From contig CM000208.1 of assembly GCA_000002445.1 (NCBI GenBank), positions 2,432,001 to 2,496,000 of the forward strand: DNA of 64,000 nucleotides. Direction: 5' to 3'. Made by a program: the position numbers and the translations under genes. How positions within the stretch are numbered: the stretch's first letter is position 1; the number at the start of each line of letters is the position of its first letter. Below the pieces are notes generated by a model. The model was not told where the DNA came from. It ran no database searches and saw only the letters and a program-made list of their open reading frames with translations. The DNA comes from Trypanosoma brucei. Taxonomy: Eukaryota. This document shows positions 30,195 to 60,839 of this stretch, piece by piece.

Positions 30195-30216
30195 TGTGTG
30201 TGTGTGTGTGTGTGTG
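30195..30216. repeat. (TG)n microsatellite in the 5' region of the PPR gene
   Basis: 'tgtgtgtgtgtgtgtgtgtgtg' read directly. Confidence 0.9.
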
Positions 30217-33097: not shown

Positions 33098-33403
33098 ATT
33101 CGAGTAGCAAAGCACTGGAACCCGAAAGGTTCACTTCACGTGCGAAGCTGTTGCGGTAAGAAAGGGAACGCGCCCACATGCTAATATCTTCACCGTCATT
33201 TCAATACACTAATTTGGGAGTGCTTTGTTATTACCCTGTTTCGGGAATTACCCTACTTGCCTCCACCTCCATAACAATCTTCTAGGACTGTCCGAAGGCT
33301 GTGGTGTGTTGGAGCGTAGGGAAGGTGTAAGGTAAAGGTTGAGACAGAAAGGAGACGCATTACCCCCAATACCACACGTTTATCGTGTTAGGTTCGACTG
33401 AGC

Positions 33404-34306: not shown

Positions 34307-34634
34307 CCTTGTGAGCTTTGCATAATTCCCCTCAGCCGCTTCATTTGTTCATCACTTCCCGTGGCTTCCAGGTCAAGTTGTTGGCGCTGCGCAGCATGCC
34401 GCTAACCGAAGTAAAGCTTTGTCGCTGTTGAGTTATCCAGGGGGCAAGTTGCTATGCGAATTTTTTTTTTACGCTTTCCCTTTTTGCACTCCTTCGACAG
34501 CTGCCGTTAAACAATAATAGCGATAGGGCAAGGAAGGGGACGAATCAGGTTTTTAGTTTTCCACTCAGGGAGGATCTTTGTCTGTACTTGAACGTTGTTG
34601 GGCACTGACCCCAGCACAGTAAAAAGTTGGTGTA

Positions 34635-37175: not shown

Positions 37176-37986
37176 CTACCGACGCGAGACTAAATTTATT
37201 GCACCATGCTGGAGGCATGCGAGCTTGCTTTGAAACCCCTCGCTCCCCCTTCTTTGATATGTCTCTTAGCTGGAAACCCCGGCGTACTCTTGTTAGTTCG
37301 ATGTCGTTTTTTTTTTGTTACCCGTTGCGTTCATAGTTATTTTTTCTCCCCTCTCGCTGCGTGCCTCCTCGGTATGCGGGCAGTACCGTGTACATCAGCG
37401 AGCGTTGCCGGCGTGTAAACGGCAAAGCGGTAATAATCGTGTAGCGACGGTCATTTGATTTATTTCCCCTCCCCCATTTCCAAGCTGCTACGCTAACCTT
37501 TACGTGCATGTGCGTTTAGTTCGCTACGATATCCCCTTCTTCAATGGCCAACTGGCATTCAACCCGACAAAATGCGCGTTCTCGCCTAGTCAGGACGAGT
37601 GGGCGGGTTGCCTCCCCTGTTTTGCTGTTTCCCCTCCCCCTCCCTCTCTTGCCCTAACCCCAATTTAATCCCTTTCTTATCCAACTTAGCCTTGTATTGA
37701 TTTGCCCTCCTTCTTCACTCCTTCTTCCAGTGTAGTTAAGTTGATTCTTCACACAATTTGATCCCTTCAGGCGGGTAGGAAAGATTCTCAGGTCTTCGGA
37801 TTCGTACCGATTAACGCTGAACCCGTGGAGGGTTTAGGTGAGGCAAAGCGGTCAACCAGAGGCGCGGAAACGGAAGGGGGGGGGTCGGTGTGCCATTTTT
37901 TCTGCTGGCGCCCCACGCGGAGGTTTGCACATATATTTTCCTCGTATTGTTGATACTTTTCAGAAGACAGGGGGGAAAGGAGGTGC

Positions 37987-44847: not shown

Positions 44848-46065
44848 TTAAAACAACAAAAATAACAACGCGAGGGTCCTCCTGAGAGAGCCAATCCTGC
44901 CAACACCACACATCGCCATCTCCTCCAACAGCTTCTCCTCTTGCACCGTTTCTCTGTTCCCGAGCACGACGAAGGACTTCCCACTATCCTCATCTACCAC
45001 TACTGTGCTTTTATTTCCGTGGGTGCCCGTGTTCACAATAGCTTGCGCGTATTCCCAGTTCCAGTGTGCGCCGGTTTCGTGCGCCAGCTCTTCGATGTGA
45101 GTATACAAGTTCACAAATTTGCGAAGCTCTCGGTAGGCGTTTCTAAGAACGGGGACGTTGTTAACGGGGTCTTCCTCCCAAGTTACATCGTGTATTAGAA
45201 CCTCTGCACGGGTTTTTCCTGTCCCCCCAACGAATCCTCTTCCACTTCGTTTAAGGGAAATAATTCCATCTCCCCAGAGTATTCTTCTGGAGGTGCTGTT
45301 TTCGGAGAGGTAGCCGCCCCCCGGACGGGTGTTTGTTAGGTGGCAGTTTGCGCTGTGGACGTAGCGTTCCAAGGGGTTTCCACCGCCACCAGTGAGCCTA
45401 AGCAGTTCGTTCATACTCTCCCGTGTCATGTTCATTTCCTCCACCCTTTCCATGCGGTGCATATCCCCCAAAGAAATAAATTCATCCTTCTCCGAGTCAC
45501 TTAAATAGCAATTCAACAACTGATTCCGCGTCGCGTGGTGCTCGCTATTTCCTACGCAAAAATCCCCTTTCCCACTGGAATACGCGCGCCGCCACACATT
45601 TATCATTTCATCCAACCTCCCCGCCGCTATCCCTGCTGCCCCTACCGCTGAGTATCCAAGATATCTCAACCTCTTCAATTCTCTCCTCTTCACCCTATTC
45701 ACTTTACTCCCCACACGTTTCAAAAACTTCGCGATCCCCGTGCACGAGGTCCAATTGCTATTTCCCCCTTCATTTCCCCTAACCCTCACAATCTTCAACC
45801 TCACCAACTCCACCATATCCTCAAACTCCCTCACCTTCTCGGTTGCATACTTAGTTTTCGCTTGGACGAAGGCATACACCGATTTCAGCCTCTTCGACGC
45901 ATTACAGAGCGCTTCCGCAGCTCCACTCAAACTCAGTGCGCCACTGTCCGCGGAGGCGCTACCAGTAAGTACAAAAAAGGACACAATCACTAATACCTTC
46001 ATGAGCGTGCGAACCCTATTCGCGATGGCAAAGGTCAAGCGAAAAAGGATAATCAAAGAGACCAT
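44848..46065 (-). CDS. PAG1: procyclin-associated gene, ESAG6/7-related; first PAG downstream of EP2, PAG1 by locus order
   Basis: Listed start 46101 is TTG. In-frame ATGs at 46065 and 46002; the latter gives the signal peptide 'MKVLVIVSFFVLTGSASA'. Shares 'AVGAAGIAAGRLDEMINVW' and 'ILWGDGIISLKRSG'. Confidence 0.65.
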   Translation of the reverse strand: MVSLIILFRLTFAIANRVRTLMKVLVIVSFFVLTGSASADSGALSLSGAAEALCNASKRLKSVYAFVQAKTKYATEKVREFEDMVELVRLKIVRVRGNEGGNSNWTSCTGIAKFLKRVGSKVNRVKRRELKRLRYLGYSAVGAAGIAAGRLDEMINVWRRAYSSGKGDFCVGNSEHHATRNQLLNCYLSDSEKDEFISLGDMHRMERVEEMNMTRESMNELLRLTGGGGNPLERYVHSANCHLTNTRPGGGYLSENSTSRRILWGDGIISLKRSGRGFVGGTGKTRAEVLIHDVTWEEDPVNNVPVLRNAYRELRKFVNLYTHIEELAHETGAHWNWEYAQAIVNTGTHGNKSTVVVDEDSGKSFVVLGNRETVQEEKLLEEMAMCGVGRIGSLRRTLALLFLLF

Positions 46066-47758
46066 TTTCGATGATTGATGAAACAGGAAAGACCGCGGCA
46101 AGTTGTGACGCCCCCACTTGGGGACTGGAAAATCCGCCGGGGATGCGCCTGCCAGATTCAGGCTTCAGCAACGGCAACGGCGTTAGTGTTGGCGGGGAAG
46201 GGAAGGTGCAAGGCGCCTTTTTGCAGCTGGAATTTAAAGCTTAACCGACAGCATGAAATCATCCGTGACACTGTCTTATTTCCCTCCAAAACCATTGGAT
46301 ACGCCGTGGTTGGCACACGGCCCATTGCCATCAATTGCTGAGGTGGGCTCGTGTTGCCGGCGGTGGGATCCAATGCACTATGGCGCATCAGAGAAGGAAG
46401 AGCGACCCCCCTGATACTTAGGGGGGTCAAAACAGGGTTTCCAGGCTACAAACCGTTCTTAACGCTATCCGCGACAACACGTTGGTGGGTAGGAAAGTGT
46501 CGGGTAGGGGCTTAAAAGTGAGATTGACCGATGGCAACTATTCTCGAGATGGCATAAAACCCTAACCGCACCCCGCCGACGCTTAGAAATTAGGTCCAGG
46601 AAAGAAAGTCAAGCCCGACCAAGGACCTCCTTTTCTTCGGTTTTGGCTTTGTCGAAAGGACACGAAATCGATCCACCGCGGGGCGCGCAGTGGACTTGTT
46701 ACTTATTTAACTGACTCCTAAACGAGAAAGCTCCCCTGCGGCGCGCGACGCACATCATCTCAAAGGCGATGTGGGAGAGAAAACACTGCGAGAACATATG
46801 ACCACCGACGAGCCGGTGAATGCCCCAGAAGTATTTCAAAAAATGTCACACTCTCCATTGATTGTCCCAGCATATTTCACAAAGTGGACCAAAACAGAGG
46901 GCAGTGCAGTAAATACGTAAAGTTCATGGAAACAACGCGCTTACCCTCTCCGCAGCCTCTCCTCCCCAACAGATCAAGTGGCAGCAGCTCACTCAACTGA
47001 ATCGCTCCCCTGACGAGAACAGTTAAATAAAGGCAAGGCAAAAGGCAAAACACCGCTCAGGCCTCAATTTTGAACAGTTACGGTGAACTTCCTGAAGGTG
47101 CTTTAAAGTTTCCCCGACATATTAACAAACATGATGATGCACCACCGTAGGCGAAGAAGGAATCATCACCAGGAATGTGCTTCCTTCAACCGCTGCTTCC
47201 CATGTTGCAACTCCACGGTGTCAAACGGAAGCTGAGATGGCGGAAATATCGAGGGACAAATCGCTTGAGTCATCAAAAGTCCATTTGTCTCCCATTTCTA
47301 GCCTGAGGTTTTAGAAGGAACTATTTTCCCAGTACGAAAAAAGGACAAGGCAAAAAGTTCGAAAAAAAAAAAGTTCAGTCACAAATGGAGGAGGTTGCTG
47401 TCAACCATTGCAGGAACAAGACATAGGAGAAGACCGCAAATGCAGTGGATGAATTTTTGACAAAACCATACGAATGGTTTACAGAAGAAACCGTTTGGTA
47501 GAAGCCAAGGAACACATTGACAGGCACACGCAGAAGTCTACAGGGCTGCGTGCTACCGCCGACGGTTCCGAGGCATAAAAAAAAAAATAGAACTCAAAAA
47601 AATAGGTTGAAAAAAAATATTACGTATATGCAAGTGTCCTGTCGCCAAGGGACGTCATAAAGCGGGCGCATCGCGCCAAAGGAAAGGTCAAAGAAATAAC
47701 TGGGGCCACCCTTGTTAAAAAGTTTTGACCCCCCAGAGAATTTTCTGTTTACATGAGC

Positions 47759-48148
47759 TTAGAATGCGGCAACGAGACCAACGGCCGCGATTGCAAACGG
47801 AAGAGCAACAGACTTCAGCGTTGCAGCACCAGGTTCAGGTTCAGGTTCAGGTTCCGGCTCGGGTTCCGGCTCGGGTTCAGGTTCGGGTTCAGGTTCGGGT
47901 TCAGGTTCGGGTTCAGGTTCAGGTTCAGGTTCGGGTTCGGGTTCGGGTTCGGGTTCAGGTTCAGGTTCGGGTTCAGGTTCAGGCTCAACTTCGTCCTGGA
48001 CCTTGGTTCCCTTCTCGCCTTTGCCTTTGCCTCCCTTAGTAAGACCCTTGTCTTCTGGTCCTTCAGCGGCTGCGGCAAATCCCACGCCAGCGAAGAGGTT
48101 CGCGCTGAACAGAAGAATAGCGAGCAGATAAAGGGAACGAGGTGCCAT
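47759..48148 (-). CDS. EP2: EP procyclin (PARP), isoform without an N-glycosylation sequon; EP2-type
   Basis: '[54 protein letters not shown](EP)~26[23 protein letters not shown]'. Has the signal peptide, the (Glu-Pro)n rod and a hydrophobic GPI-addition tail. No GPEET motif. Confidence 0.9.
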
Positions 48149-49077: not shown

Positions 49078-49503
49078 TTAGAATGCGGCAACGAGAGCAG
49101 CAGCCGCGACTGCAAACGGAAGTGCAACAGATTTCAGCGTTGCAGCACCAGGTTCAGGTTCAGGTTCGGGTTCAGGTTCCGGCTCGGGTTCCGGCTCGGG
49201 TTCAGGTTCAGGTTCCGGCTCGGGTTCAGGTTCGGGTTCAGGTTCAGGTTCAGGTTCAGGTTCAGGTTCAGGTTCAGGTTCGGGTTCGGGTTCGGGTTCG
49301 GGTTCAGGTTCAGGTTCAGGGTCGGGGTCAGTGCCATTGGTATCGTCGGCGCCGACCTTGGTTCCCTTCTCGCCTTTGCCTTTGCCTCCCTTAGTAAGAC
49401 CCTTGTCTTCTGGTCCTTCAGCGGCTGCGGCAAATCCCACGCCAGCGAAGAGGTTCGCGCTGAACAGAAGAATAGCGAGCAGATAAAGGGAACGAGGTGC
49501 CAT
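49078..49503 (-). CDS. EP1: EP procyclin (PARP), isoform with an N-glycosylation sequon; EP1-type and first gene of the unit
   Basis: Same N- and C-termini as EP2, but '[14 protein letters not shown]' (NGT sequon) precedes about 28 EP dipeptides. The 47 nt upstream of the ATG are identical to those upstream of EP2. Confidence 0.9.
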
Positions 49504-49559
49504 TGTGAATTTTACTTCTTGGTGTAATTGAAGTCTTCAAGTTGAAAAAAATGGGGAAA

Positions 49560-49900
49560 AGGAAAAAAAACTCGAAGGCGCGTGCAGCGATCACGAGAAC
49601 ATGTTAAACTCAGTACTCACCCGATAACCCCTATTTTCAATGCACGCCCACCCAGAGACACGGAACAGCACAAAACAACCATATCACTTCCACAAAATGG
49701 ACATTTTACACAAAATGCACTATTGACTAGTACTCAACTATACTAATAAGAGATACCTATCGGACACGATATACTGTGAAAAGGATATTAAGCTCACTAT
49801 GCATCTGAAAACGCTTTCACCTCACAACCTACTGACACACACCTTTCCGCTTAACCCCAATGACAACAAAGGCTGACTGCACCTCACATCTGAGGAAGAG
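49560..49900 (-). promoter_or_regulatory. procyclin (EP/PAG) RNA polymerase I promoter region, approximate
   Basis: By established knowledge the procyclin promoter lies within about 250 bp upstream of the transcription start, which is about 100-150 nt upstream of the EP1 trans-splice site. Here the polyY tract plus AG sits at about 49545-49600 on the minus strand. The interval upstream is ORF-free and AT-rich, and EP2 has no duplicated equivalent beyond 47 nt. Confidence 0.45.
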
Positions 49901-50925
49901 GTCCAGGGGAGCGGTGCCTGTTCGCGGTGCGGAATTGTTGTTTCCCCCTCTTCCTCATCCGCCCCCTCGGTTCCGTGGGCCCTGACTCCCGAAGAGTTTT
50001 CGAGAATTGTTAATAGAGAAGGGATTCGCTCACCATATTCGGAACAATACACTTGTCAGAAGTTTGGCAATCCAGTTTGGGGGCACTGAAAAGCACTTTG
50101 TGGTGAATCAGCGGCATTTAGGCCGGCAGCGGTATGTTTTGCTACGAAACACCGGGCATCGAAGAAGTCAGAAAGCCCTTCAGCACGACGGCTGATGGAG
50201 AACGCTGGTAAAGTTTTCCTTTCATGCGCCCTCAACGAGAACTAGCGGAAATTAAAACCAATTTCGGCGGATAAAGGCCCCGCAACTCGGCACATCGGCG
50301 GCGTTGGTGGGCCGACTCACCGATAAAACGAGCCGACACCTGCCACCACACACACTGGTATATGAAGGGGGCACCTCCGGTGGGCACGCAACTCCCAATG
50401 AGCTTTTGCCGTGGTGGGAACCGTGGCGCGCCTGATTGGTTGAAATTTCGTCGGCACAATGACCTGCCAGGATGCGTTGGGCTTGGTTAAGGATGTTGGC
50501 GCTTTGGGGAAACGAAGACCCACGCTCAGCGGAGCCTGAACATGGGACCACATCTGCGTGGTTTATTGGGCTGCCAAGGCCTCCGAAAGGCGAGCCCGAT
50601 CCTGGAAACGGGTGGAGCAAGTTCCTAAGAGGGTTGCTCTCCCGCGTTTCACGGCCCACTGCCTACGCGCGCAGGGTAAGTAAATTGGCTTAGACATAGC
50701 CCCCGAAAGGGGAAAAAGAAGGTCAAGGATGGCAACCGGGTTCTGTCCGTGACATTGCGAGGGACAATTGGTTGCCATGACCGGAAGGCGCCCGCCACCC
50801 ATGGGTTTCTACCCACCCCCAAATGAGGCGAGGGTTTTGCAGGCTAGGAATATCTATGATTGAATCAAATATTGCCATGCCTCCCCCCGATGTGGGACAC
50901 GCAAATGCGTTACGCTCCCCTCCCC

Positions 50926-50941
50926 CCCCCCCCCCGAAGGG
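50926..50941. repeat. poly(C)16 homopolymer inside the GC-rich island
   Basis: 'cccccccccccccccc' read directly. Confidence 0.9.
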
Positions 50942-51206
50942 ACCGAACGCACAGCCTCCTCCACGAGGTGGAACAAAGGAAACGGTAGGACAGCAGCGGC
51001 GCACGACTACCACACAACCACTGAGCACACCGATGAGAAGCGATACGCTTGGAACATGGGGCGCACCGAAGGGAAAAAGCACTGAAGAAAAGGGCGGAGC
51101 GGGTGAATCGAAGGGCTCCCCGAATGTAAACACGCGCGCACTGAAGAACACACACCGCGACAGTTGCTCAAAGTCAGCGCGACCCGGGTGTTGCATTGCA
51201 CCTAGG

Positions 51207-51370
51207 CGCACACGCAACTCCACTGCCTCCTGTAGCAAGGCCGCGTAAGTTTGGGGGCCTCCAAGGGCAAGTCAAAACCCGTCGAGGCGGAGCCTCGGTT
51301 AGATAACGGTAACGGAACACGCTACAGCGGGTCCGGCGTCGCTACAGGAGGCAGTGGAGTTGCGTGTGCG
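51207..51370. repeat. perfect 30-bp inverted repeat with a 104-nt spacer (potential hairpin)
   Basis: 51207-51236 'cgcacacgcaactccactgcctcctgtagc' is the exact reverse complement of 51341-51370 'gctacaggaggcagtggagttgcgtgtgcg'. It is also visible as the shared 'RTRNSTASCS' in the opposite-strand ORFs 50823..51248(+) and 51299..51565(-). Confidence 0.85.
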
Positions 51371-54065
51371 GAAACCACAGTGCAGGGTGCGCAGTGGATA
51401 ATTTGTGGAAAGGCTACCATCCGCGTCCGACCACGTTGTGACGGCCGAATGGTTTCCATCACGACATGGCTGCCCACGTATCACGACGAAACCGATAAGA
51501 GATTCGCAGGGTCCAATGGAAGGAGTGAAAAAAACGGGGTGAAGATGAGGAAAGAAAGGCAACACTTACGAGCATTCCGAAATTAAAGCCCGTGATACGG
51601 AGGAGCTGTGTCAAATTGCGAATGACGGAGACGATGTTGGGATACACCTCACAGCATTAAGCTGGGGTCGCCGTTCTCACTGGCATCCCTGGATGCGATA
51701 ACAAGGAGTTGGGCCATATCGGCGAAACGCTACCAGCAATAGCCGAGCTTTAAGCAGTAAGCGAGGAAAGCTGGTGCAACCGGGAACCCACCACTGGGTG
51801 TGCGACCGGGAAGGGAAGGAAATCCGCAGCCAGTTGGAGTTGGTATTCCAATGGTCGTCGGGCTACTTGGCCACTACCACCCGTACCTCAACCGCCTCAC
51901 ACACCCAACAGCATGCACTTACTCATGCACCAAGACGCATGAATAAATGCACTGGGAAGGTAAATAAATTCAGCTTTAAAAAAAAAAGATGAGCCAGGGA
52001 GATTACGTAAAAGGGGCTCATCCGCACCTCCCGCACACCGCAAAATAATAATAATAATAACGCTATGTTAAAAAGCACAAGCAACGGAAAAGCCTCTGCT
52101 TACATTTGTTAATGCACAGGCGCAGCGCAGCGGAGAGAACCCTGCAATTCTCCATGCGCAAAATCACTGTTCAACCGAAAGGGACGACACCCCGAGTGGC
52201 GCAAGTACGGCGGCCAGGGCATGTTTACAAACATGCGTTGAGTATGGCGACTCGACAATCCCCCAAAAATTATGAAAATGGGGGGCAGCAAGACCCGCAC
52301 CCACAACCCACACGGTTTTAGAGCAAACACGCCTACAGGCATCAAAAAAAGTAAAAAAAACTGGCACAGTCATAAAAGGTCCCAGCCGACTTTCCAGCAC
52401 GTTCTCCACCTTCACCTTTGAACGTTAGAAACATTACAACGGTGATCTGTGTGACGCACCTTTGTTAAATTACCCTTAAAAGATAGACAAAAAGCGAAGG
52501 ATCATTAGCGACGTCGCAATACAACCGAGTTTCCGCAACAACCGCAACGACACCCCATTTCCACACAATGCAAAACCGAAGGCAGCACTTCCTCACCACC
52601 CTTCCGCCTCCGCACTACTTGTCATGACCCCCCGCGTTGTCGCCCCCGTAGTGATACCGCTTCCGTGATTTCAAAGGACATAAACACTTACAAAACTGGT
52701 ACAAATCCCTGCACCATCAACATGATAGTGGTTGGCATACTTTCCAACCGCTGTGGTCTGAACTCGCACTACCTTCCCAACCTCTACAATCACACAAAGG
52801 GACAAAAAAATCAGAGGTTCTACTCCAACCTACGGCGTATTCAGTACCACAGCCCAGCATCCGAAGGGACAAAACACGCACCAACAACTCGGGCACGATT
52901 TACACCGTTCCCTCGCACCGACAAGCCACACAAACACCAAATTCATTACGAAATATAACCATCCCCTCACTAATACAAGGCGAAACAATAAGCATAATCA
53001 AACAGCTGACAGACAGAAATCCACCGCAGGGCTCAATGTAAGCTAACTTCGCCCTCCCCCTCCCTCACCCTATGGCCTCAGTGTTGCCCTGTAAAACCTT
53101 CTCTGACACTAGTCAAGCAGAGGTAAAAACTAACCTAACCCTAACACTCTCACACAATGAAAGGAGAATCCGTGGGGAATTTGGGAAAAGGCAAAGCACA
53201 CACGGTAAGCAGTCGGCACAACCCCTGGCGCAAAGAAGGCGCAACTGCACGCAAACAAGGCATTCGATTCAGTACCTTCTGTAGGATATGTGGGTTGCCA
53301 TACCGTAGGCAGTTACCAGTAACAGAAACGTATGGGGAAGGAAAGAATCAAAATATAGCTAAAGCTCCTCAACGCATATATATATACATATATTACCGTT
53401 TCACAGCCAATTCATACATCACACTTAACGCTCCCTCTAAACAACGACCCCAAACAATAACATCCCCAGGTACCTCACCAACAACAACAACAACACAATT
53501 CTTAATTAGCAAATATGGCTTCAATGGAGGCAAAGGAAGAAAGGAAGGACGTACACTCCAACTGTGAGATCCCGCTCGAATCAGCTGTAGCGACGAGAGT
53601 AGTTAACGGAAGGTCGACCCAGGGACCCACATCGCATCCCTACGCTGCCGTTAACATACCCTCAAGTGAAAATTAAAAAAAAAAATGGACCAAAAGTTGA
53701 TTTCAGCAAAAGTGCGTCCGAAAGAAAGGGCACGAAACAACAAACAGAAAATAATCAGCAGCAAAATAAATACATCACATTACGTGGCTATCACTGGACA
53801 CAACCAATAGTTGGTCAGCACGTGCCAGTAGTCGATCGACAAAATACATAATAATCAGCACAGTTAGCACAGGAGAGATAATATCAGCCCTTTCACGCAA
53901 CGCATTATCCACACTCACAACACGAAACAACTACGTTGAGGACAAACGAATGGCGCCACCCAATGGCATACTCCTGCGTACATTGATCTCCACAGTGCAG
54001 CACTCATACGTAAAGACCTTCCAATCACAGTTTAAAAAAGAGGAAAATACCGCTTCTCAAATATT

Positions 54066-57000
54066 CTACACCTTGCGACCCGAGTGATTAACGAAGGTTG
54101 CGCGGTTAGTCGTAACATACATCGAAGGGTCCACATGACGGACCTGTACTGCAGGTTTCCCAATGGGACGAGGAGGACATTGTACCTCAGGCCTGATAAA
54201 CCTGTTGCGGTATTCGCTGCTTACACCTTGCATAGAAATGCTTGACTGTTTAACAGTCGGAGCAGCCTTTGGCATATAAGGTTTGCTGGCACCGTGTGCC
54301 TTGAAATCTCTATGCGCGGTACTCACGTACATATCAGCATCTACATGACAAGGGCAGGAATAACCAACATTAGGGGCCTTTTTCCACTTTGACACACGTA
54401 CTCCGTTACCAGTTGGTTGATCGCCCACAGCCGCAGCAGCACACTCAGTAGTAGCTGCAACAGCCGCAGCAGCACCTCCATTACTCTCCCCACTTGCGAC
54501 ACACTTCATATCAGTGGAGACATCAACCTTCTTTGATGTCACACCACCATCACTTTTACCTTTCACGACCTTCTTAACAACAATAGCATCAGCTACAGAT
54601 GAAGCAGTAAAGCTATGCCTCTTAGATATAACAGATTCATCACCAAAGGAAGACTCCCTACACGAACTCTTATAACAAGAAGAATCATAGCGACAATACG
54701 AATCCTTTGCAGTTGTCCTAAAGTGGCCATCATCACCACCGCGACTTGACACTTTCACAACTTCCTCACGGAGCACATCACGCTTATATGCGGCAGGGTC
54801 AATTGGTGCATACGATTCTGCAGTGGTTGAGCGGAAGTGACTGGGATCAACATGACGAGGGCCCGTTGCCTCCTCTTCCTCACGGAGCACATCACGCTTA
54901 TATGCGGCAGGGTCAATTGGCGCATACGATTCTGCAGTGGTTGAGCGGAAGTGACTGGGATCAACATGACGAGGGCCCGTTGCCTCCTCTTCCTCACGGA
55001 GCACATCACGCTTATATGCGGCAGGGTCAATTGGCGCATACGATTCTGCAGTGGTTGAGCGGAAGTGACTGGGATCAACATGACGAGGGCCCGTTACCTC
55101 CTCTTCCTCACGGAGCACATCACGCTTATATGCGGCAGGGTCAATTGGCGCATACGATTCTGCAGTGGTTGAGCGGAAGTGACTGGGATCAACATGACGA
55201 GGGCCCGTTACCTCCTCTTCCTCACGGAGCACATCACGCTTATATGCGGCAGGGTCAATTGGTGCATACGATTCTGCAGTGGTTGAGCGGAAGTGACTGG
55301 GATCAACATGACGAGGGCCCGTTACCTCCTCTTCCTCACGGAGCACATCACGCTTATATGCGGCAGGGTCAATTGGTGCATGCGATTCTGCAGTGGTTGA
55401 GCGGAAGTGACTGGGGTCAACATGACGAGGGCCCGTTACCTCCTCTTCCTCACGGAGCACATCACGCTTATATGCGGCAGGGTCAATTGGCGCATACGAT
55501 TCTGCAGTGGTTGAGCGGAAGTGACTGGGGTCAACATGACGAGGGCCCGTTACCTCCTCTTCCTCACGGAGCACATCACGCTTATATGCGGCAGGGTCAA
55601 TTGGCGCATACGATTCTGCAGTGGTTGAGCGGAAGTGACTGGGGTCAACATGACGAGGGCCCGTTACCTCCTCTTCCTCACGGAGCACATCACGCTTATA
55701 TGCGGCAGGGTCAATTGGTGCATACGATTCTGCAGTGGTTGAGCGGAAGTGACTGGGGTCAACATGACGAGGGCCCGTTACCTCCTCTTCCTCACGGAGC
55801 ACATCACGCTTATATGCGGCAGGGTCAATTGGCGCATACGATTCTGCAGTGGTTGAGCGGAAGTGACTGGGGTCAACATGACGAGGGCCCGTTACCTCCT
55901 CTTCCTCACGGAGCACATCACGCTTATATGCGGCAGGGTCAATTGGCGCATACGATTCTGCAGTGGTTGAGCGGAAGTGACTGGGGTCAACATGACGAGG
56001 GCCCGTTACCTCCTCTTCCTCACGGAGCACATCACGCTTATATGCGGCAGGGTCAATTGGCGCATACGATTCTGCAGTGGTTGAGCGGAAGTGACTGGGA
56101 TCAACATGACGAGGGCCCGTTGCCTCCTCTTCCTCACGGAGCACATCACGCTTATATGCGGCAGGGTCAATTGGCGCATACGATTCTGCAGTGGTTGAGC
56201 GGAAGTGACTGGGATCAACATGACGAGGGCCCGTTACCTCCTCTTCCTCACGGAGCACATCACGCTTATATGCGGCAGGGTCAATTGGCGCATACGATTC
56301 TGCAGTGGTTGAGCGGAAGTGACTGGGGTCAACATGACGAGGGCCCGTTACCTCCTCTTCCTCACGGAGCACATCACGCTTATATGCGGCAGGGTCAATT
56401 GGCGCATACGATTCTGCAGTGGTTGAGCGGAAGTGACTGGGATCAACATGACGAGGGCCCGTTACCTCCTCTTCCTCACGGAGCACATCACGCTTATATG
56501 CGGCAGGGTCAATTGGCGCATACGATTCTGCAGTGGTTGAGCGGAAGTGACTGGGATCAACATGACGAGGGCCCGTTACCTCCTCTTCCTCACGGAGCAC
56601 ATCACGCTTATATGCGGCAGGGTCAATTGGCGCATACGATTCTGCAGTGGTTGAGCGGAAGTGACTGGGATCAACATGACGAGGGCCCGTTACCTCCTCT
56701 TCCTCACGGAGCACATCACGCTTATATGCGGCAGGGTCAATTGGTGCATACGATTCTGCAGTGGTTGAGCGGAAGTGACTGGGGTCAACATGACGAGGGC
56801 CCGTTACCTCCTCTTCCTCACGGAGCACATCACGCTTATATGCGGCAGGGTCAATTGGTGCATACGATTCTGCAGTGGTTGAGCGGAAGTGACTGGGGTC
56901 AACATGACGAGGGCCCGTTACCTCCTCTTCCTCACGGAGCACATCACGCTTATATGCGGCAGGGTCAATTGGCGCATACGATTCTGCAGTGGTTGAGCGG

Positions 57001-60000
57001 AAGTGACTGGGGTCAACATGACGAGGGCCCGTTACCTCCTCTTCCTCACGGAGCACATCACGCTTATATGCGGCAGGGTCAATTGGCGCATACGATTCTG
57101 CAGTGGTTGAGCGGAAGTGACTGGGGTCAACATGACGAGGGCCCGTTACCTCCTCTTCCTCACGGAGCACATCACGCTTATATGCGGCAGGGTCAATTGG
57201 TGCATACGATTCTGCAGTGGTTGAGCGGAAGTGACTGGGGTCAACATGACGAGGGCCCGTTACCTCCTCTTCCTCACGGAGCACATCACGCTTATATGCG
57301 GCAGGGTCAATTGGCGCATACGATTCTGCAGTGGTTGAGCGGAAGTGACTGGGATCAACATGACGAGGGCCCGTTACCTCCTCTTCCTCACGGAGCACAT
57401 CACGCTTATATGCGGCAGGGTCAATTGGCGCATACGATTCTGCAGTGGTTGAGCGGAAGTGACTGGGATCAACATGACGAGGGCCCGTTGCCTCCTCTTC
57501 CTCACGGAGCACATCACGCTTATATGCGGCAGGGTCAATTGGCGCATACGATTCTGCAGTGGTTGAGCGGAAGTGACTGGGATCAACATGACGAGGGCCC
57601 GTTACCTCCTCTTCCTCACGGAGCACATCACGCTTATATGCGGCAGGGTCAATTGGCGCATACGATTCTGCAGTGGTTGAGCGGAAGTGACTGGGGTCAA
57701 CATGACGAGGGCCCGTTACCTCCTCTTCCTCACGGAGCACATCACGCTTATATGCGGCAGGGTCAATTGGTGCATACGATTCTGCAGTGGTTGAGCGGAA
57801 GTGACTGGGATCAACATGACGAGGGCCCGTTACCTCCTCTTCCTCACGGAGCACATCACGCTTATATGCGGCAGGGTCAATTGGTGCATACGATTCTGCA
57901 GTGGTTGAGCGGAAGTGACTGGGATCAACATGACGAGGGCCCGTTACCTCCTCTTCCTCACGGAGCACATCACGCTTATATGCGGCAGGGTCAATTGGTG
58001 CATACGATTCTGCAGTGGTTGAGCGGAAGTGACTGGGGTCAACATGACGAGGGCCCGTTACCTCCTCTTCCTCACGGAGCACATCACGCTTATATGCGGC
58101 AGGGTCAATTGGCGCATACGATTCTGCAGTGGTTGAGCGGAAGTGACTGGGATCAACATGACGAGGGCCCGTTACCTCCTCTTCCTCACGGAGCACATCA
58201 CGCTTATATGCGGCAGGGTCAATTGGTGCATACGATTCTGCAGTGGTTGAGCGGAAGTGACTGGGGTCAACATGACGAGGGCCCGTTACCTCCTCTTCCT
58301 CACGGAGCACATCACGCTTATATGCGGCAGGGTCAATTGGCGCATACGATTCTGCAGTGGTTGAGCGGAAGTGACTGGGGTCAACATGACGAGGGCCCGT
58401 TACCTCCTCTTCCTCACGGAGCACATCACGCTTATATGCGGCAGGGTCAATTGGCGCATACGATTCTGCAGTGGTTGAGCGGAAGTGACTGGGATCAACA
58501 TGACGAGGGCCCGTTACCTCCTCTTCCTCACGGAGCACATCACGCTTATATGCGGCAGGGTCAATTGGCGCATACGATTCTGCAGTGGTTGAGCGGAAGT
58601 GACTGGGATCAACATGACGAGGGCCCGTTACCTCCTCTTCCTCACGGAGCACATCACGCTTATATGCGGCAGGGTCAATTGGCGCATACGATTCTGCAGT
58701 GGTTGAGCGGAAGTGACTGGGGTCAACATGACGAGGGCCCGTTACCTCCTCTTCCTCACGGAGCACATCACGCTTATATGCGGCAGGGTCAATTGGCGCA
58801 TACGATTCTGCAGTGGTTGAGCGGAAGTGACTGGGGTCAACATGACGAGGGCCCGTTACCTCCTCTTCCTCACGGAGCACATCACGCTTATATGCGGCAG
58901 GGTCAATTGGCGCATACGATTCTGCAGTGGTTGAGCGGAAGTGACTGGGGTCAACATGACGAGGGCCCGTTACCTCCTCTTCCTCACGGAGCACATCACG
59001 CTTATATGCGGCAGGGTCAATTGGCGCATACGATTCTGCAGTGGTTGAGCGGAAGTGACTGGGATCAACATGACGAGGGCCCGTTACCTCCTCTTCCTCA
59101 CGGAGCACATCACGCTTATATGCGGCAGGGTCAATTGGCGCATACGATTCTGCAGTGGTTGAGCGGAAGTGACTGGGGTCAACATGACGAGGGCCCGTTA
59201 CCTCCTCTTCCTCACGGAGCACATCACGCTTATATGCGGCAGGGTCAATTGGCGCATACGATTCTGCAGTGGTTGAGCGGAAGTGACTGGGATCAACATG
59301 ACGAGGGCCCGTTACCTCCTCTTCCTCACGGAGCACATCACGCTTATATGCGGCAGGGTCAATTGGTGCATACGATTCTGCAGTGGTTGAGCGGAAGTGA
59401 CTGGGGTCAACATGACGAGGGCCCGTTGCCTCCTCTTCCTCACGGAGCACATCACGCTTATATGCGGCAGGGTCAATTGGCGCATACGATTCTGCAGTGG
59501 TTGAGCGGAAGTGACTGGGATCAACATGACGAGGGCCCGTTGCCTCCTCTTCCTCACGGAGCACATCACGCTTATATGCGGCAGGGTCAATTGGTGCATA
59601 CGATTCTGCAGTGGTTGAGCGGAAGTGACTGGGATCAACATGACGAGGGCCCGTTACCTCCTCTTCCTCACGGAGCACATCACGCTTATATGCGGCAGGG
59701 TCAATTGGTGCATACGATTCTGCAGTGGTTGAGCGGAAGTGACTGGGGTCAACATGACGAGGGCCCGTTACCTCCTCTTCCTCACGGAGCACATCACGCT
59801 TATATGCGGCAGGGTCAATTGGTGCATACGATTCTGCAGTGGTTGAGCGGAAGTGACTGGGGTCAACATGACGAGGGCCCGTTACCTCCTCTTCCTTACG
59901 GAGCACATCACGCTTATATGCGGCAGGGTCAATTGGTGCATACGATTCTGCAGTGGTTGAGCGGAAGTGACTGGGGTCAACATGACGAGGGCCCGTTACC

Positions 60001-60839
60001 TCCTCTTCCTCACGGAGCACATCACGCTTATATGCGGCAGGGTCAATTGGTGCATACGATTCTGCAGTGGTTGAGCGGAAGTGACTGGGATCAACATGAC
60101 GAGGGCCCGTTACCTCCTCTTCCTCACGGAGCACATCACGCTTATATGCGGCAGGGTCAATTGGTGCATACGATTCTGCAGTGGTTGAGCGGAAGTGACT
60201 GGGGTCAACATGACGAGGGCCCGTTACCTCCTCTTCCTCACGGAGCACATCACGCTTATATGCGGCAGGGTCAATTGGTGCATACGATTCTGCAGTGGTT
60301 GAGCGGAAGTGACTGGGGTCAACATGACGAGGGCCCGTTACCTCCTCTTCCTCACGGAGCACATCACGCTTATATGCGGCAGGGTCAATTGGTGCATACG
60401 ATTCTGCAGTGGTTGAGCGGAAGTGACTGGGATCAACATGACGAGGGCCCGTTACCTCCTCTTCCTCACGGAGCATATCACGCTTATATGCGGCAGGGTC
60501 AATTGGTGCATACGATTCTGCAGTGGTTGAGCGGAAGTGACTGGGATCAACATGACGAGGGCCCGTTACCTCCTCTTCCTCACGGAGCATATCACGCTTA
60601 TATGCGGCAGGGTCAATTGGTGCATACGATTCTTTCATTGTGGAAAGTATTTCTTTATAATTTTGTTTATTTGCTTTTTGTTGTTTCATATAAAGGTTTT
60701 CAGTATTGTGCGGCAAACTTTTTTTTTTGTTTTTTATGTCGATGCAATCGTAGACCTCTGCTCTTTCTTTATCTCTTTGTGGATATGGTTGCGGATCATT
60801 CCACTTATAGTCTGCTTCTAATCCCTTTGTGCCAGGCAT
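54066..60839 (-). CDS. MARP: microtubule-associated repetitive protein (MARP-type). Has N- and C-terminal unique domains flanking about 51 tandem 38-aa repeats.
   Basis: 2,257-aa ATG-initiated ORF. Repeat unit 'SYAPIDPAAYKRDVLREEEEVTGPRHVDPSHFRSTTAE' (38 aa, 114 bp) reiterated almost identically. Ordinary unique N- and C-terminal sequences. The 38-aa periodicity is the hallmark of trypanosome MARP/MAP. Confidence 0.85.
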   Translation of the reverse strand: MPGTKGLEADYKWNDPQPYPQRDKERAEVYDCIDIKNKKKSLPHNTENLYMKQQKANKQNYKEILSTMKESYAPIDPAAYKRDMLREEEEVTGPRHVDPSHFRSTTAESYAPIDPAAYKRDMLREEEEVTGPRHVDPSHFRSTTAESYAPIDPAAYKRDVLREEEEVTGPRHVDPSHFRSTTAESYAPIDPAAYKRDVLREEEEVTGPRHVDPSHFRSTTAESYAPIDPAAYKRDVLREEEEVTGPRHVDPSHFRSTTAESYAPIDPAAYKRDVLREEEEVTGPRHVDPSHFRSTTAESYAPIDPAAYKRDVLRKEEEVTGPRHVDPSHFRSTTAESYAPIDPAAYKRDVLREEEEVTGPRHVDPSHFRSTTAESYAPIDPAAYKRDVLREEEEVTGPRHVDPSHFRSTTAESYAPIDPAAYKRDVLREEEEATGPRHVDPSHFRSTTAESYAPIDPAAYKRDVLREEEEATGPRHVDPSHFRSTTAESYAPIDPAAYKRDVLREEEEVTGPRHVDPSHFRSTTAESYAPIDPAAYKRDVLREEEEVTGPRHVDPSHFRSTTAESYAPIDPAAYKRDVLREEEEVTGPRHVDPSHFRSTTAESYAPIDPAAYKRDVLREEEEVTGPRHVDPSHFRSTTAESYAPIDPAAYKRDVLREEEEVTGPRHVDPSHFRSTTAESYAPIDPAAYKRDVLREEEEVTGPRHVDPSHFRSTTAESYAPIDPAAYKRDVLREEEEVTGPRHVDPSHFRSTTAESYAPIDPAAYKRDVLREEEEVTGPRHVDPSHFRSTTAESYAPIDPAAYKRDVLREEEEVTGPRHVDPSHFRSTTAESYAPIDPAAYKRDVLREEEEVTGPRHVDPSHFRSTTAESYAPIDPAAYKRDVLREEEEVTGPRHVDPSHFRSTTAESYAPIDPAAYKRDVLREEEEVTGPRHVDPSHFRSTTAESYAPIDPAAYKRDVLREEEEVTGPRHVDPSHFRSTTAESYAPIDPAAYKRDVLREEEEVTGPRHVDPSHFRSTTAESYAPIDPAAYKRDVLREEEEVTGPRHVDPSHFRSTTAESYAPIDPAAYKRDVLREEEEVTGPRHVDPSHFRSTTAESYAPIDPAAYKRDVLREEEEATGPRHVDPSHFRSTTAESYAPIDPAAYKRDVLREEEEVTGPRHVDPSHFRSTTAESYAPIDPAAYKRDVLREEEEVTGPRHVDPSHFRSTTAESYAPIDPAAYKRDVLREEEEVTGPRHVDPSHFRSTTAESYAPIDPAAYKRDVLREEEEVTGPRHVDPSHFRSTTAESYAPIDPAAYKRDVLREEEEVTGPRHVDPSHFRSTTAESYAPIDPAAYKRDVLREEEEVTGPRHVDPSHFRSTTAESYAPIDPAAYKRDVLREEEEVTGPRHVDPSHFRSTTAESYAPIDPAAYKRDVLREEEEVTGPRHVDPSHFRSTTAESYAPIDPAAYKRDVLREEEEVTGPRHVDPSHFRSTTAESYAPIDPAAYKRDVLREEEEVTGPRHVDPSHFRSTTAESYAPIDPAAYKRDVLREEEEVTGPRHVDPSHFRSTTAESYAPIDPAAYKRDVLREEEEATGPRHVDPSHFRSTTAESYAPIDPAAYKRDVLREEEEVTGPRHVDPSHFRSTTAESYAPIDPAAYKRDVLREEEEVTGPRHVDPSHFRSTTAESYAPIDPAAYKRDVLREEEEVTGPRHVDPSHFRSTTAESYAPIDPAAYKRDVLREEEEVTGPRHVDPSHFRSTTAESYAPIDPAAYKRDVLREEEEVTGPRHVDPSHFRSTTAESYAPIDPAAYKRDVLREEEEVTGPRHVDPSHFRSTTAESHAPIDPAAYKRDVLREEEEVTGPRHVDPSHFRSTTAESYAPIDPAAYKRDVLREEEEVTGPRHVDPSHFRSTTAESYAPIDPAAYKRDVLREEEEVTGPRHVDPSHFRSTTAESYAPIDPAAYKRDVLREEEEATGPRHVDPSHFRSTTAESYAPIDPAAYKRDVLREEEEATGPRHVDPSHFRSTTAESYAPIDPAAYKRDVLREEVVKVSSRGGDDGHFRTTAKDSYCRYDSSCYKSSCRESSFGDESVISKRHSFTASSVADAIVVKKVVKGKSDGGVTSKKVDVSTDMKCVASGESNGGAAAAVAATTECAAAAVGDQPTGNGVRVSKWKKAPNVGYSCPCHVDADMYVSTAHRDFKAHGASKPYMPKAAPTVKQSSISMQGVSSEYRNRFIRPEVQCPPRPIGKPAVQVRHVDPSMYVTTNRATFVNHSGRKV
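54765..60632. repeat. 114-bp tandem repeat array, about 51.5 units, at least 97% identical
   Basis: Unit '...cctcttcctcacggagcacatcacgcttatatgcggcagggtcaattgg[c/t]gcatacgattctgcagtggttgagcggaagtgactggg[a/g]tcaacatgacgagggcccgtt[a/g]cct...' read continuously. Most variants are synonymous; V/A and M/V substitutions are rare. Confidence 0.95.

What the first reader, a model, noticed from the sequence alone, without database searches (positions are those of the whole stretch)
49504..54065. 4.5-kb interval without a credible ORF, containing a 1.5-kb GC-rich island (about 50200-51700)
Gene spacing elsewhere in the window is 0.1-2 kb. This interval is long. It is split into three zones. The MARP-proximal part (52400-54000) is U-rich on the sense strand and 3'UTR-like. 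The central island is GC-rich, with poly(C)16, poly(G) runs and the inverted repeat. The distal AT-richer part (49500-50200) is promoter-like. ORFs inside the island (50723..51238-, 50823..51248+) are low-complexity and mutually overlapping, so I do not call them. Candidate functions are a Pol II termination or boundary element, a non-coding RNA, or a decayed gene or retroelement remnant.
Basis: seen in the sequence. Interest (0 to 1): 0.5.

Follow-up and report, generated by a model that had tools for sequence, protein, structure and literature searches.

The report
Spacer between MARP and procyclin promoter
This is the non-coding spacer in Trypanosoma brucei chromosome 10 where the RNA polymerase II unit ending in MARP gives way to the RNA polymerase I procyclin (EP1) unit; it is a well-studied locus, and only its unusually GC-rich middle part has no explanation.

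Summary
The gap between the MARP stop codon (54066) and the EP1 start codon (49503) is 4,562 bp. No reading frame in it scores as coding. Positions 50175-51699 are 57% G+C, the richest 1.5 kb of the window.

The window is the T. brucei TREU927 EP/PAG1 procyclin locus. The "promoter-like" zone is the known EP1 Pol I promoter. It sits in a 671-bp block that is 95% identical to the chromosome 6 GPEET locus, and the homology stops sharply at 50174, the edge of the island.

The island carries an annotated orphan ORF (Tb10.6k15.0010, 157 aa). That ORF is frameshifted in T. b. gambiense, lacks gene-like codon usage, and has no relatives outside T. brucei among 1.84 billion representative proteins.

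The island is present and colinear in T. b. gambiense and T. equiperdum, so it is not an insertion. It is about 3% diverged there, against 0.4% in the end of the MARP gene.

No Rfam, tRNA, Pfam or repeat-family match was found.

Published knockdowns (PNUTS, PP1-1) show that Pol II normally stops between MARP and EP1.

Verdict: a known boundary spacer, low interest. Any specific role for the GC island is untested.

The parts
54066..60839 (-). MARP (microtubule-associated repetitive protein) coding sequence. It is the last gene of the upstream Pol II polycistronic unit. Context only, not part of the finding.
   Evidence: 2257-aa ORF with 38-aa repeats. Tb927.10.10280 lies at the matching chromosome coordinates. 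The literature names MARP as the gene upstream of EP/PAG1 and uses it as a Pol II standard (PMC2731899).
52400..54065 (-). MARP-proximal zone, rich in G and T on the sense strand: the MARP 3'UTR and/or a trailing processed transcript.
   Evidence: GC 0.457. On the - strand, T-over-A skew is 0.288, G-over-C skew 0.241, and G+T 63%. Candidate polypyrimidine tracts at 54034-54047, 53532-53549 and 53334-53347. 98.0% identical to DAL972.
52830..52995 (-). Two overlapping small ORFs (38 and 31 aa) listed as ribosome-footprint-covered candidate CDSs. They show that stable sense-strand RNA reaches at least 1.2 kb past the MARP stop.
   Evidence: Vasquez et al. 2014 (PMC3973304), supplement file 7: Tb927_10_v5:2523435-2523551 and 2523505-2523600. 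Coverage is 9.6 and 7.2 per nt, with 100% of each ORF covered. In-frame 5' ends are only 38% and 22%, so there is no codon periodicity. The peptides were verified in the window.
51700..52399 (-). Middle zone of ordinary composition, with a small local hairpin at 51881-52040.
   Evidence: GC 0.50, sense-strand T-over-A skew 0.343. Hairpin z-score -2.8. 98.6% identical to DAL972.
50175..51699 (-). GC-rich island: unique, non-coding sequence specific to chromosome 10. It begins exactly where homology with the chromosome 6 procyclin locus ends.
   Evidence: GC 0.57. No Pfam, Rfam or tRNA match. No similarity to the rest of the window or to the chromosome 6 locus. Codon-model scores are non-coding. 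Present in DAL972 and T. equiperdum at about 3.0% divergence, with indels of 1, 1 and 6-7 nt.
50723..51196 (-). Annotated orphan ORF, hypothetical protein Tb10.6k15.0010 (157 aa; probably Tb927.10.10270 by gene order). Judged not to be a real gene.
   Evidence: P0108 is 100% identical to the window ORF. The DAL972 version is frameshifted to 111 aa and labelled 'hypothetical protein, unlikely'. A full HMMER scan of 1.84 billion representatives found only this cluster. The codon score of the enclosing 171-aa ORF (50723..51238) is -0.036, against a gene mean of +0.151. Substitutions show no codon-phase bias.
50917..50935 (-). G14 run with adjacent G4 on the sense strand (a C-run on the + strand). 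It matches a G-quadruplex motif and differs in length between haplotypes.
   Evidence: It is 7 nt shorter in DAL972 and 6 nt shorter in T. equiperdum.
51207..51370 (-). Inverted repeat: 37-nt arms (51207-51243 and 51334-51370) around a 90-nt loop, which could form a long hairpin in RNA or single-stranded DNA.
   Evidence: RNA minimum free energy -108 kcal/mol, z-score -9.7. Arms pair at 35/37 in TREU927 and 34/37 in the other haplotype, with no compensatory changes.
49504..50174 (-). Upstream block of the duplicated procyclin unit. It holds the EP1 Pol I promoter (about 49600-49880, placed from general knowledge of the promoter and not mapped here) and the EP1 5'UTR. A polypyrimidine tract lies at 49553-49570 and the presumed splice-acceptor AG at 49535-49536.
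   Evidence: 95.3% identity over 806 bp to the T. equiperdum chromosome 6 GPEET locus, with a sharp breakpoint at 50174. Polypyrimidine tract. Sequence read. EP/PAG1 is transcribed by Pol I from a promoter upstream of EP1 (PMC2731899).
49078..49503 (-). EP1 procyclin coding sequence (Tb927.10.10260). Context only.
   Evidence: 141-aa EP-repeat ORF. Its size matches Tb927_10_v5:2519684-2520109.

Best explanation
The interval is the non-coding junction between two transcription units on the - strand of T. brucei chromosome 10. It has three parts of different origin.

1. Positions 54065 down to about 51700 are the transcribed tail of the Pol II unit. This is the MARP 3'UTR and/or a trailing processed RNA of no coding value.
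2. Positions 51699-50175 are a GC-rich stretch found only at this locus. It is under no coding constraint and evolves at least as fast as the DNA around it.
3. Positions 50174-49504 are the start of the duplicated procyclin unit, which carries the EP1 Pol I promoter and 5'UTR.

Pol II coming from MARP normally terminates somewhere in parts 1 or 2. This depends on the PNUTS/PP1 pathway, which is linked to base J and histone H3.V. Termination keeps the silent Pol I unit from being read in bloodstream forms.

What is shown here:
- the anatomy and composition of the interval;
- the absence of coding potential;
- the homology breakpoint at 50174;
- the presence of the whole spacer in two other genomes.

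What is taken from published experiments:
- Pol II terminates upstream of EP1.
- The EP unit is transcribed by Pol I.
- Sense-strand RNA is present 1.2 kb past the MARP stop.

What is inferred:
- The island is a passive spacer rather than a dedicated element.
- The MARP mRNA ends, and Pol II stops, at positions that are not yet known within the interval.
For: Locus identity:
- PAG1 is 100% identical to the TREU927 protein, and the island ORF is 100% identical to Tb10.6k15.0010.
- EP1 and MARP sit at matching chromosome coordinates.

No coding:
- Best-of-six-frame codon scores across the interval are -0.04 to -0.21. True gene windows score +0.151 +/- 0.063; other gaps score -0.110 +/- 0.069.
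- Individual ORFs in the interval score -0.166 to +0.021.
- Open reading frames are not kept between haplotypes, and 1-nt and 7-nt indels break frames.
- Substitutions are spread evenly over codon phases, 13/17/16.
- The 182-aa open stretch of the island (window 50726-51271, - strand) has no relative outside T. brucei.
- No Pfam match in six frames of 49900-52500.

No known RNA:
- Rfam found nothing, even at E <= 5, and no tRNA was found.
- Folding z-scores average about 0.

Spacer character:
- The island's sense-strand T-over-A skew is 0.195. Other gaps of the window range from -0.08 to 0.35 (12 of 15 are at or above 0.07), and coding regions range from -0.06 to 0.15.

Not an insertion:
- The interval is colinear with DAL972 and T. 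equiperdum at 97.2-97.4% identity.

Procyclin unit boundary:
- Homology with the chromosome 6 locus starts at 50174.
- The chromosome 6 locus also has an ORF-free spacer of about 4 kb, but without a GC island. This argues that a long spacer is the shared feature, not high GC.

Termination:
- PMC11229358 reports that EP/PAG1 is 'immediately downstream of a Pol II transcribed PTU'. [quoted passage not shown]
- PMC7055916 gives the same reading for PNUTS depletion.

RNA past the stop:
- Footprint-covered small ORFs without codon periodicity lie at 52830-52995.
Against: - The island's G+C content (0.554-0.608 in 500-bp windows) is 2.3-3.7 sd above the other non-coding gaps of the window, and 'passive spacer' does not explain it.
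- The island contains a very stable hairpin (z-score -9.7) and a G14 run.
- CYTTCGG is enriched on the sense strand of the interval, 8 observed against 0.9 expected. I picked this motif after seeing the sequence.
- Any of these features could mark a functional element.
- I could not look at poly(A) or spliced-leader sites, Pol II occupancy, base J or H3.V at these coordinates. The termination point within the 4.5 kb is therefore unknown.
- The only comparisons available are within the T. brucei group (3% divergence at most), which is too close to reveal constraint on non-coding sequence.
Confidence: 0.6

Rival explanations
1. The GC-rich island is a dedicated cis element: a Pol II terminator or insulator that shields the Pol I promoter from read-in transcription. 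This would resemble the promoter-proximal terminator found upstream of rDNA promoters in other eukaryotes. Its G-run, hairpin or CYTTCGG motifs would act as pause or binding sites, or as sites of base J deposition.
For: - Termination must occur in this interval (PMC11229358 and PMC7055916).
- The island sits directly upstream of the promoter block.
- It is the strongest compositional outlier among the non-coding DNA of the window.
- It carries a G14 / G-quadruplex motif on the sense strand, a hairpin with z-score -9.7 and sense-strand-only CYTTCGG motifs.
Against: - The chromosome 6 procyclin locus has the same head-to-tail layout and a 4-kb spacer, but no GC island and no homologous sequence.
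- The island is the fastest-diverging part of the spacer (3.0%), and the G-run length differs between haplotypes.
- The changes in the hairpin arms are not compensatory.
- The CYTTCGG motif was chosen after looking at the sequence.
Confidence: 0.12
2. The island is a degraded relic of a gene or mobile element that once lay downstream of MARP, at the break in synteny where the procyclin unit was inserted. It no longer has any function.
For: - Procyclin loci lie at a break in synteny with Leishmania and T. cruzi (PMC2731899).
- The island's G+C content is at or above that of coding sequence.
- Three - strand ORFs (51565..51299, 51238..50723, 50659..50252) share one reading frame.
- The island begins exactly at a duplication breakpoint.
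Against: - No residual codon bias in any frame.
- No Pfam domain, including reverse transcriptase or endonuclease.
- The 182-aa open stretch of the island (window 50726-51271, - strand) has no homologue among 1.84 billion representatives.
- The scarcity of stop codons follows from the low A content of the - strand, 17%.
Confidence: 0.15
3. The island encodes a functional long non-coding RNA, or a hairpin that is a source of small RNAs, processed from the end of the Pol II unit.
For: - Several polypyrimidine tracts on the sense strand could direct trans-splicing (51808-51822, 50705-50722).
- Functional lncRNAs are known in and near procyclin loci (TblncRNA-23, PMC12008373).
- The stem of roughly 36 bp could be a Dicer substrate.
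Against: - No Rfam match.
- No general excess of RNA structure.
- It is not among the novel lncRNAs listed from nanopore direct RNA sequencing for these coordinates.
- It is not among the seven large siRNA-producing inverted repeats (PMC3447711).
- Divergence is high.
Confidence: 0.1
4. Tb10.6k15.0010 is a real T. brucei-specific protein-coding gene.
For: - It is annotated in TREU927 (157 aa) and in T. equiperdum (155 aa).
- The poly-G length difference is in frame between these two.
Against: - It is frameshifted in DAL972, where it is labelled 'unlikely'.
- The TREU927 and T. equiperdum proteins are only 94% identical over the aligned stretch and differ by a two-residue gap in the glycine run; the 13 nucleotide changes within the ORF show no codon-phase bias.
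- Its codon score is non-coding.
- It is an orphan.
- It is low-complexity and overlaps a 141-aa ORF on the opposite strand.
Confidence: 0.03

Closest known systems
Pol II transcription termination regions of T. brucei polycistronic units (marked by base J, H3.V and H4.V; dependent on PNUTS-JBP3-Wdr82 and PP1-1)
   Same: - The interval lies at the 3' end of a Pol II unit.
- Published knockdowns of PNUTS and PP1-1 cause read-through from here into EP/PAG1.
- It contains no genes.
   Different: - This unit ends head-to-tail against a Pol I promoter, not against another Pol II unit or a tRNA gene.
- I could not check the chromatin marks or the exact stop point at these coordinates.
- No sequence motif defines such regions, so sequence cannot prove membership.
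Procyclin (EP/GPEET) Pol I promoter and expression-site upstream region
   Same: Positions 49504-50174 are 95% identical to the region upstream of GPEET on chromosome 6. They lie directly upstream of EP1.
   Different: This covers only the distal 671 bp of the finding. The GC island and the MARP-proximal zone lie outside the shared block.
Promoter-proximal terminators upstream of rDNA Pol I promoters in yeast and vertebrates (Reb1 / TTF-I sites). Analogy from general knowledge.
   Same: The position and presumed purpose match: stopping transcription that arrives from upstream before it reaches a Pol I promoter.
   Different: - Those are short, defined protein-binding sites that stop Pol I.
- Here the incoming enzyme is Pol II.
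- No binding site is known here.
- The paralogous locus lacks the island.
'Hypothetical protein, unlikely' ORFs in trypanosome genome annotations
   Same: Tb10.6k15.0010 and its DAL972 counterpart are short, orphan, low-complexity ORFs lying in intergenic DNA. DAL972 labels its copy exactly this way.
   Different: The TREU927 and T. equiperdum records still list it as a plain hypothetical protein.

Membership tests
Protein-coding gene (Tb10.6k15.0010 and the other island ORFs) | The reading frame is preserved in close relatives. | tested here: not met
   A 7-nt deletion frameshifts the ORF in DAL972 (157 aa becomes 111 aa). The 182-aa open stretch shrinks to 136 aa, and the 155-aa opposite-strand stretch is lost.
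Protein-coding gene (Tb10.6k15.0010 and the other island ORFs) | Codon usage like that of genes in the same genome. | tested here: not met
   Island ORFs score -0.166 to +0.021, and interval windows score -0.04 to -0.21. Genes score +0.151 +/- 0.063, with a 5th percentile of 0.073.
Protein-coding gene (Tb10.6k15.0010 and the other island ORFs) | Substitutions concentrated at third codon positions (purifying selection). | tested here: inconclusive
   Phase counts are 13/17/16 in the island and 3/5/5 in the ORF, with no bias. However, only 13 changes fall in the ORF.
Protein-coding gene (Tb10.6k15.0010 and the other island ORFs) | Homologues or recognisable domains beyond the species. | tested here: not met
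   The only hit is the same-locus cluster in T. brucei subspecies, out of 1.84 billion representatives. No Pfam match.
Retroposon remnant (ingi/RIME, DIRE, SLACS) | Traces of reverse transcriptase or endonuclease coding sequence. | tested here: not met
   No Pfam family at E <= 0.1 in six frames of 49900-52500. The single hit, at E 0.13, is to an unrelated DUF.
Retroposon remnant (ingi/RIME, DIRE, SLACS) | Other copies elsewhere in the genome. | not testable with these tools
   No copy was found in the 64-kb window or in the three related loci held. No T. brucei genome was available to search.
Known structured RNA family (Rfam) or tRNA | A match to a covariance model, or a tRNA fold. | tested here: not met
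   No Rfam match at gathering score for the whole window, and none at E <= 5 for the interval. ARAGORN found nothing.
T. brucei Pol II termination region | Lies at the 3' end of a polycistronic unit, downstream of its last gene. | tested here: met
   MARP and the gene at 62375..63985 are on the - strand, followed by the Pol I unit. PMC2731899 and PMC11229358 describe the same layout.
T. brucei Pol II termination region | Read-through into downstream DNA when termination factors are removed. | not testable with these tools
   Reported in the literature for this locus: PP1-1 knockdown yields BMH-21-insensitive EP/PAG1 transcripts (PMC11229358), and PNUTS depletion has a similar effect (PMC7055916). 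The stop point has not been mapped within the 4.5 kb.
T. brucei Pol II termination region | Enrichment of base J, H3.V and H4.V. | not testable with these tools
   Only general statements are available. H3.V is reported over the downstream strand-switch region and the PAGs (PMC2731899), and H3.V and J lie within 10 kb of the affected genes (PMC4721609).
Procyclin Pol I promoter block | Sequence shared with the other procyclin locus, directly upstream of the first procyclin gene. | tested here: met
   95.3% identity over 806 bp (window 50174-49369) to the T. equiperdum chromosome 6 GPEET locus, with a sharp breakpoint.
Procyclin Pol I promoter block | Mapped transcription start site and promoter domains. 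| not tested
   Positions are given only approximately, from general knowledge of the EP/PARP promoter. The original mapping papers were not available.

The most novel reading that the evidence does not exclude
The GC-rich island (50175-51699) is a dedicated barrier that stops Pol II before it reaches the EP1 Pol I promoter. It would act through its sense-strand G14 / G-quadruplex run, its 36-bp hairpin or its CYTTCGG motifs, possibly by recruiting base J or H3.V, or by generating small RNAs. That would make it the first sequence-defined Pol II terminator or insulator in a trypanosome.
Probability: 0.1. Interest if true: 0.55.

Novelty: already known. Interest (0 to 1): 0.2.

Why it matters
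The locus matters because it is where trypanosomes keep an insect-stage surface-coat unit, transcribed by Pol I, apart from constitutive Pol II transcription. Failure of that separation de-represses procyclins in bloodstream forms.

That biology is already published. What this analysis adds is bookkeeping:
- The duplicated procyclin unit starts at 50174.
- The annotated ORF Tb10.6k15.0010 should be treated as spurious.
- The spacer exists in two old haplotypes.
- Its GC-rich core is an unexplained compositional oddity that the chromosome 6 locus lacks.

No sequence-defined Pol II terminator is known in trypanosomes. The island would become interesting only if deleting it altered termination or promoter shielding.

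Tried and rejected
Searches that found nothing:
- Rfam at gathering score on the whole window, and at E <= 5 on the interval.
- tRNA scan.
- Pfam on six-frame translations of 49900-52500: nothing meaningful.
- TRF, direct-repeat search, and the bacterial-type promoter/terminator scan: only short runs or chance-level matches.
- blastn and tblastx of the island against the rest of the window and the chromosome 6 locus.

Attempts to obtain related loci:
- Exact look-ups of EP1, EP2, the 536-aa gene upstream of MARP, TREU927 PAG1 and TREU927 GPEET2 found no contig.
- The homology search with EP1 was swamped by EP-repeat low-complexity hits.
- The search with the MARP C-terminal domain found nothing.
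- PAG1 finally gave the DAL972 locus. The island ORF gave the T. equiperdum locus.
- T. congolense, T. vivax and T. cruzi could not be reached with these tools.

Ideas tested and rejected:
- That three same-frame - strand ORFs mark a pseudogene. The low A content explains the scarcity of stops, and no frame carries codon bias.
- That the island is generally structured RNA. Sliding-window z-scores average about 0.
- That the inverted repeat is a known siRNA locus. It is not in the list of large inverted repeats in PMC3447711.

Literature that could not be used:
- Supplements of the lncRNA and polysome papers were not held.
- The nanopore list of novel lncRNAs has no entry at these coordinates.
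- The 1989 paper that first described the locus (PMC335039) was not held.

Full report
WHERE WE ARE

The window is the EP/PAG1 procyclin locus of Trypanosoma brucei brucei TREU927, chromosome 10. On the - strand it reads as follows:
- a 536-aa gene (62375..63985);
- MARP (54066..60839, 38-aa repeats);
- the gap in question;
- EP1 (49078..49503);
- EP2 (47759..48148);
- PAG1 (44848..46101) and further PAGs.

A + strand unit (8..39396) converges on this from the other side.

PAG1 is 100% identical to the TREU927 protein. EP1 matches Tb927.10.10260 at Tb927_10_v5:2519684-2520109. Window coordinates therefore equal chromosome coordinates minus about 2,470,606, give or take 1.

Published work describes MARP as part of the upstream Pol II unit and the EP/PAG unit as transcribed by Pol I (PMC2731899).

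CHECK OF THE OBSERVATION

The gap is 4,562 bp. Positions 50200-51700 are 56.8% G+C. The 1.5-kb window starting at 50251 is the richest of the 64 kb: 0.570, against a mean of 0.501 with sd 0.030.

Against non-coding DNA the contrast is stronger. The island's 500-bp windows are 0.554-0.608. A set of 120 windows from the other gaps has mean 0.466, sd 0.038 and maximum 0.544.

The MARP-proximal zone is rich in T and G on the sense strand, and the distal zone is 46.6% G+C. The inverted repeat is real: 37-nt arms, 35/37 complementary, 90 nt apart.

Three details need correcting. The C-run is 14 bases, not 16. The G runs on the + strand are only 5-6 bases. The window has two other ORF-free gaps of 3.05 and 3.50 kb, so gene spacing is not confined to 0.1-2 kb.

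IS ANYTHING CODING?

No. I trained a codon log-likelihood model on 19 genes of the window. True-frame 450-nt gene windows score +0.151 +/- 0.063, with a 5th percentile of 0.073. Every window of the interval, taking the best of six frames, scores between -0.04 and -0.21. That is the same as the other gaps, which score -0.110 +/- 0.069. Individual ORFs of the interval score -0.166 to +0.021.

Three - strand ORFs share a frame. However, the - strand is only 17% A, which by itself makes stop codons rare, and no frame carries codon bias.

One ORF (50723..51196, - strand) is annotated in TREU927 as hypothetical protein Tb10.6k15.0010, 157 aa. By gene order this is probably Tb927.10.10270, which is an inference. 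Its DAL972 counterpart is 111 aa, frameshifted, and labelled 'hypothetical protein, unlikely'. The T. equiperdum counterpart is 155 aa.

A full HMMER scan of 1.84 billion representative proteins, using the 182-aa open stretch as query, returned only this cluster. Six-frame Pfam searching found nothing meaningful.

IS IT A KNOWN RNA OR REPEAT?

- Rfam gave no match, even at E <= 5.
- No tRNA was found.
- Tandem and direct-repeat searches gave only short runs.
- The island has no similarity to the rest of the window or to the chromosome 6 locus.
- Folding z-scores in sliding 160-nt windows average -0.17 on the sense strand.

There are two local exceptions. The inverted repeat forms a 164-nt hairpin (-108 kcal/mol, z-score -9.7). 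A smaller hairpin lies at 51881-52040 (z-score -2.8).

COMPARISON WITH RELATED LOCI

The T. b. gambiense DAL972 chromosome 10 locus (L001) and the T. equiperdum chromosome 10 locus (L003) both contain the whole spacer. It is colinear in both, at 97.2-97.4% identity. The island is therefore not a strain-specific insertion.

The two other genomes are almost identical to each other, with 0.07% difference in the island. Both carry a 428-aa PAG that is 62% identical to PAG1. They therefore appear to represent the other known allelic form of the locus, EP/PAG2. That identification is an inference from PMC2731899.

Divergence from TREU927 by zone is as follows:

| Zone | Divergence |
|---|---|
| End of the MARP coding sequence | 0.4% |
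| MARP-proximal zone | 2.0-2.5% |
| Middle zone | 1.4% |
| GC island | 3.0% |
| Promoter block | 3.0-3.4% |

The island also has indels of 1, 1 and 6-7 nt that would break reading frames. Substitutions fall evenly on the three codon phases, 13/17/16. The changes in the hairpin arms are not compensatory: 35/37 pairs become 34/37.

The T. equiperdum chromosome 6 GPEET locus (L002) shares 95.3% identity with window 50174-49369. The homology stops abruptly at 50174. It is the upstream block of the duplicated procyclin unit, and it contains the EP1 Pol I promoter and 5'UTR. The GC island begins exactly where that block ends and is specific to chromosome 10.

The chromosome 6 locus also has an ORF-free spacer of about 4.05 kb, between a gene-like ORF (codon score 0.16) and GPEET. 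Its richest 1.5 kb is only 0.514 G+C.

EVIDENCE ON FUNCTION FROM PUBLISHED EXPERIMENTS

Kieft et al. 2024 (PMC11229358) state that the EP/PAG1 site is 'immediately downstream of a Pol II transcribed PTU'. [quoted passage not shown] The authors attribute this to Pol II reading through from the upstream unit.

Kieft et al. 2020 (PMC7055916) give the same reading for PNUTS depletion. So Pol II normally terminates between MARP and EP1, which means inside this interval. Neither paper maps the stop point.

Vasquez et al. 2014 (PMC3973304, supplement) list two overlapping small ORFs with ribosome-footprint coverage at window 52830-52995 on the - strand. Only 38% and 22% of read 5' ends are in frame, so there is no codon periodicity. 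This shows that stable sense-strand RNA extends at least 1.2 kb past the MARP stop. It does not show translation.

INTERPRETATION

The interval is best read as a composite non-coding junction with three parts:
- a transcribed Pol II tail, which is the MARP 3'UTR and/or trailing RNA;
- an unconstrained GC-rich stretch specific to this locus;
- the duplicated procyclin promoter block.

Pol II terminates somewhere in the first two parts.

In T-over-A strand asymmetry the island (0.195) behaves like the other transcribed spacers of the window and unlike coding sequence. Only its G+C content is odd.

Three arguments count against the island being a required element. The paralogous locus lacks it. 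It is the fastest-diverging part of the spacer. Its G-run varies in length between haplotypes.

Several things remain unexplained: the G+C content itself, the very stable hairpin, the G14 / G-quadruplex motif, and the sense-strand CYTTCGG excess (8 observed against 0.9 expected). I chose that motif after seeing the sequence, so the excess should be read with caution.

RIVALS

- A dedicated Pol II barrier (0.12).
- A decayed gene or mobile-element relic at the synteny break (0.15). This is not exclusive of the main reading.
- A functional lncRNA or small-RNA source (0.10).
- A real orphan protein (0.03).

None has positive support beyond position and composition.

VERDICT

The distal 'promoter-like' zone is the known EP1 promoter block. 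The locus and its logic are already known. The GC island is a minor, unexplained compositional feature. Interest is low (0.2).

Noticed in passing
window 49504-54065, - strand (motif starts at 50583, 50703, 50934, 51066, 52175, 52576, 52861, 53718): The heptamer CYTTCGG occurs 8 times on the sense strand of the spacer and never on the other strand. Dinucleotide shuffles give 0.9 on average, with a maximum of 4 in 300. The rest of the window has 8 copies on the - strand across about 59 kb. The motif was chosen after looking at the sequence.
   Followed up: partly
window 51207-51370: The 37-nt inverted repeat folds into a 164-nt hairpin with a stem of about 36 bp (-108 kcal/mol, z-score -9.7). 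It is kept at 34/37 pairs in the other haplotype, without compensatory changes. It is not among the seven large siRNA-producing inverted repeats published for T. brucei.
   Followed up: partly
window 52830-52995, - strand: Two overlapping small ORFs (38 and 31 aa) appear in a published list of ribosome-footprint-covered candidate CDSs. They lack 3-nt periodicity. The more likely explanation is 3'UTR or non-coding RNA fragments rather than translation.
   Followed up: partly
L001 (DAL972 chr10) and L003 (T. equiperdum chr10) compared with window 49400-54300: The two other genomes are nearly identical to each other but about 3% diverged from TREU927 across the island and promoter block, against 0.4% in the end of the MARP gene. 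Both carry a PAG2-like gene instead of PAG1. The spacer therefore seems to belong to the old EP/PAG1 versus EP/PAG2 allelic dimorphism.
   Followed up: partly
L002 5947-10000 (T. equiperdum chr6 GPEET locus): The other procyclin locus also has an ORF-free spacer of about 4 kb upstream of its first procyclin gene. Only its last 671 bp are homologous to chromosome 10, and it has no GC island.
   Followed up: yes
window 54066-60839: The MARP ORF here is 6,774 nt, whereas a published table gives 7,116 nt for Tb927.10.10280 in assembly v5. The difference of 342 nt equals three 114-nt repeats. The repeat number therefore differs between assembly versions.
   Followed up: no
window 54746-60859, + strand: A 2,037-aa ORF on the strand opposite MARP is a mirror artefact of the 114-nt repeats, not a gene.
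   Followed up: no
window about 48149-49077 (between EP1 and EP2): A published Pol I-transcribed lncRNA, TblncRNA-23, is reported to lie between the two procyclin genes on chromosomes 6 and 10. In this window that is the EP1-EP2 spacer, outside the finding (PMC12008373).
   Followed up: no
L001 5990-6325 (- strand in the locus; about window 49861-50196, + strand): DAL972 annotates a second 111-aa ORF inside the promoter block, on the strand opposite EP1. No ORF of 80 aa or more exists at that place in TREU927, so it is probably spurious too.
   Followed up: no
window 51881-52040, - strand: A local pair of hairpins, one with a 17-bp stem, gives a folding z-score of about -3. This is borderline given the 116 windows tested.
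   Followed up: no
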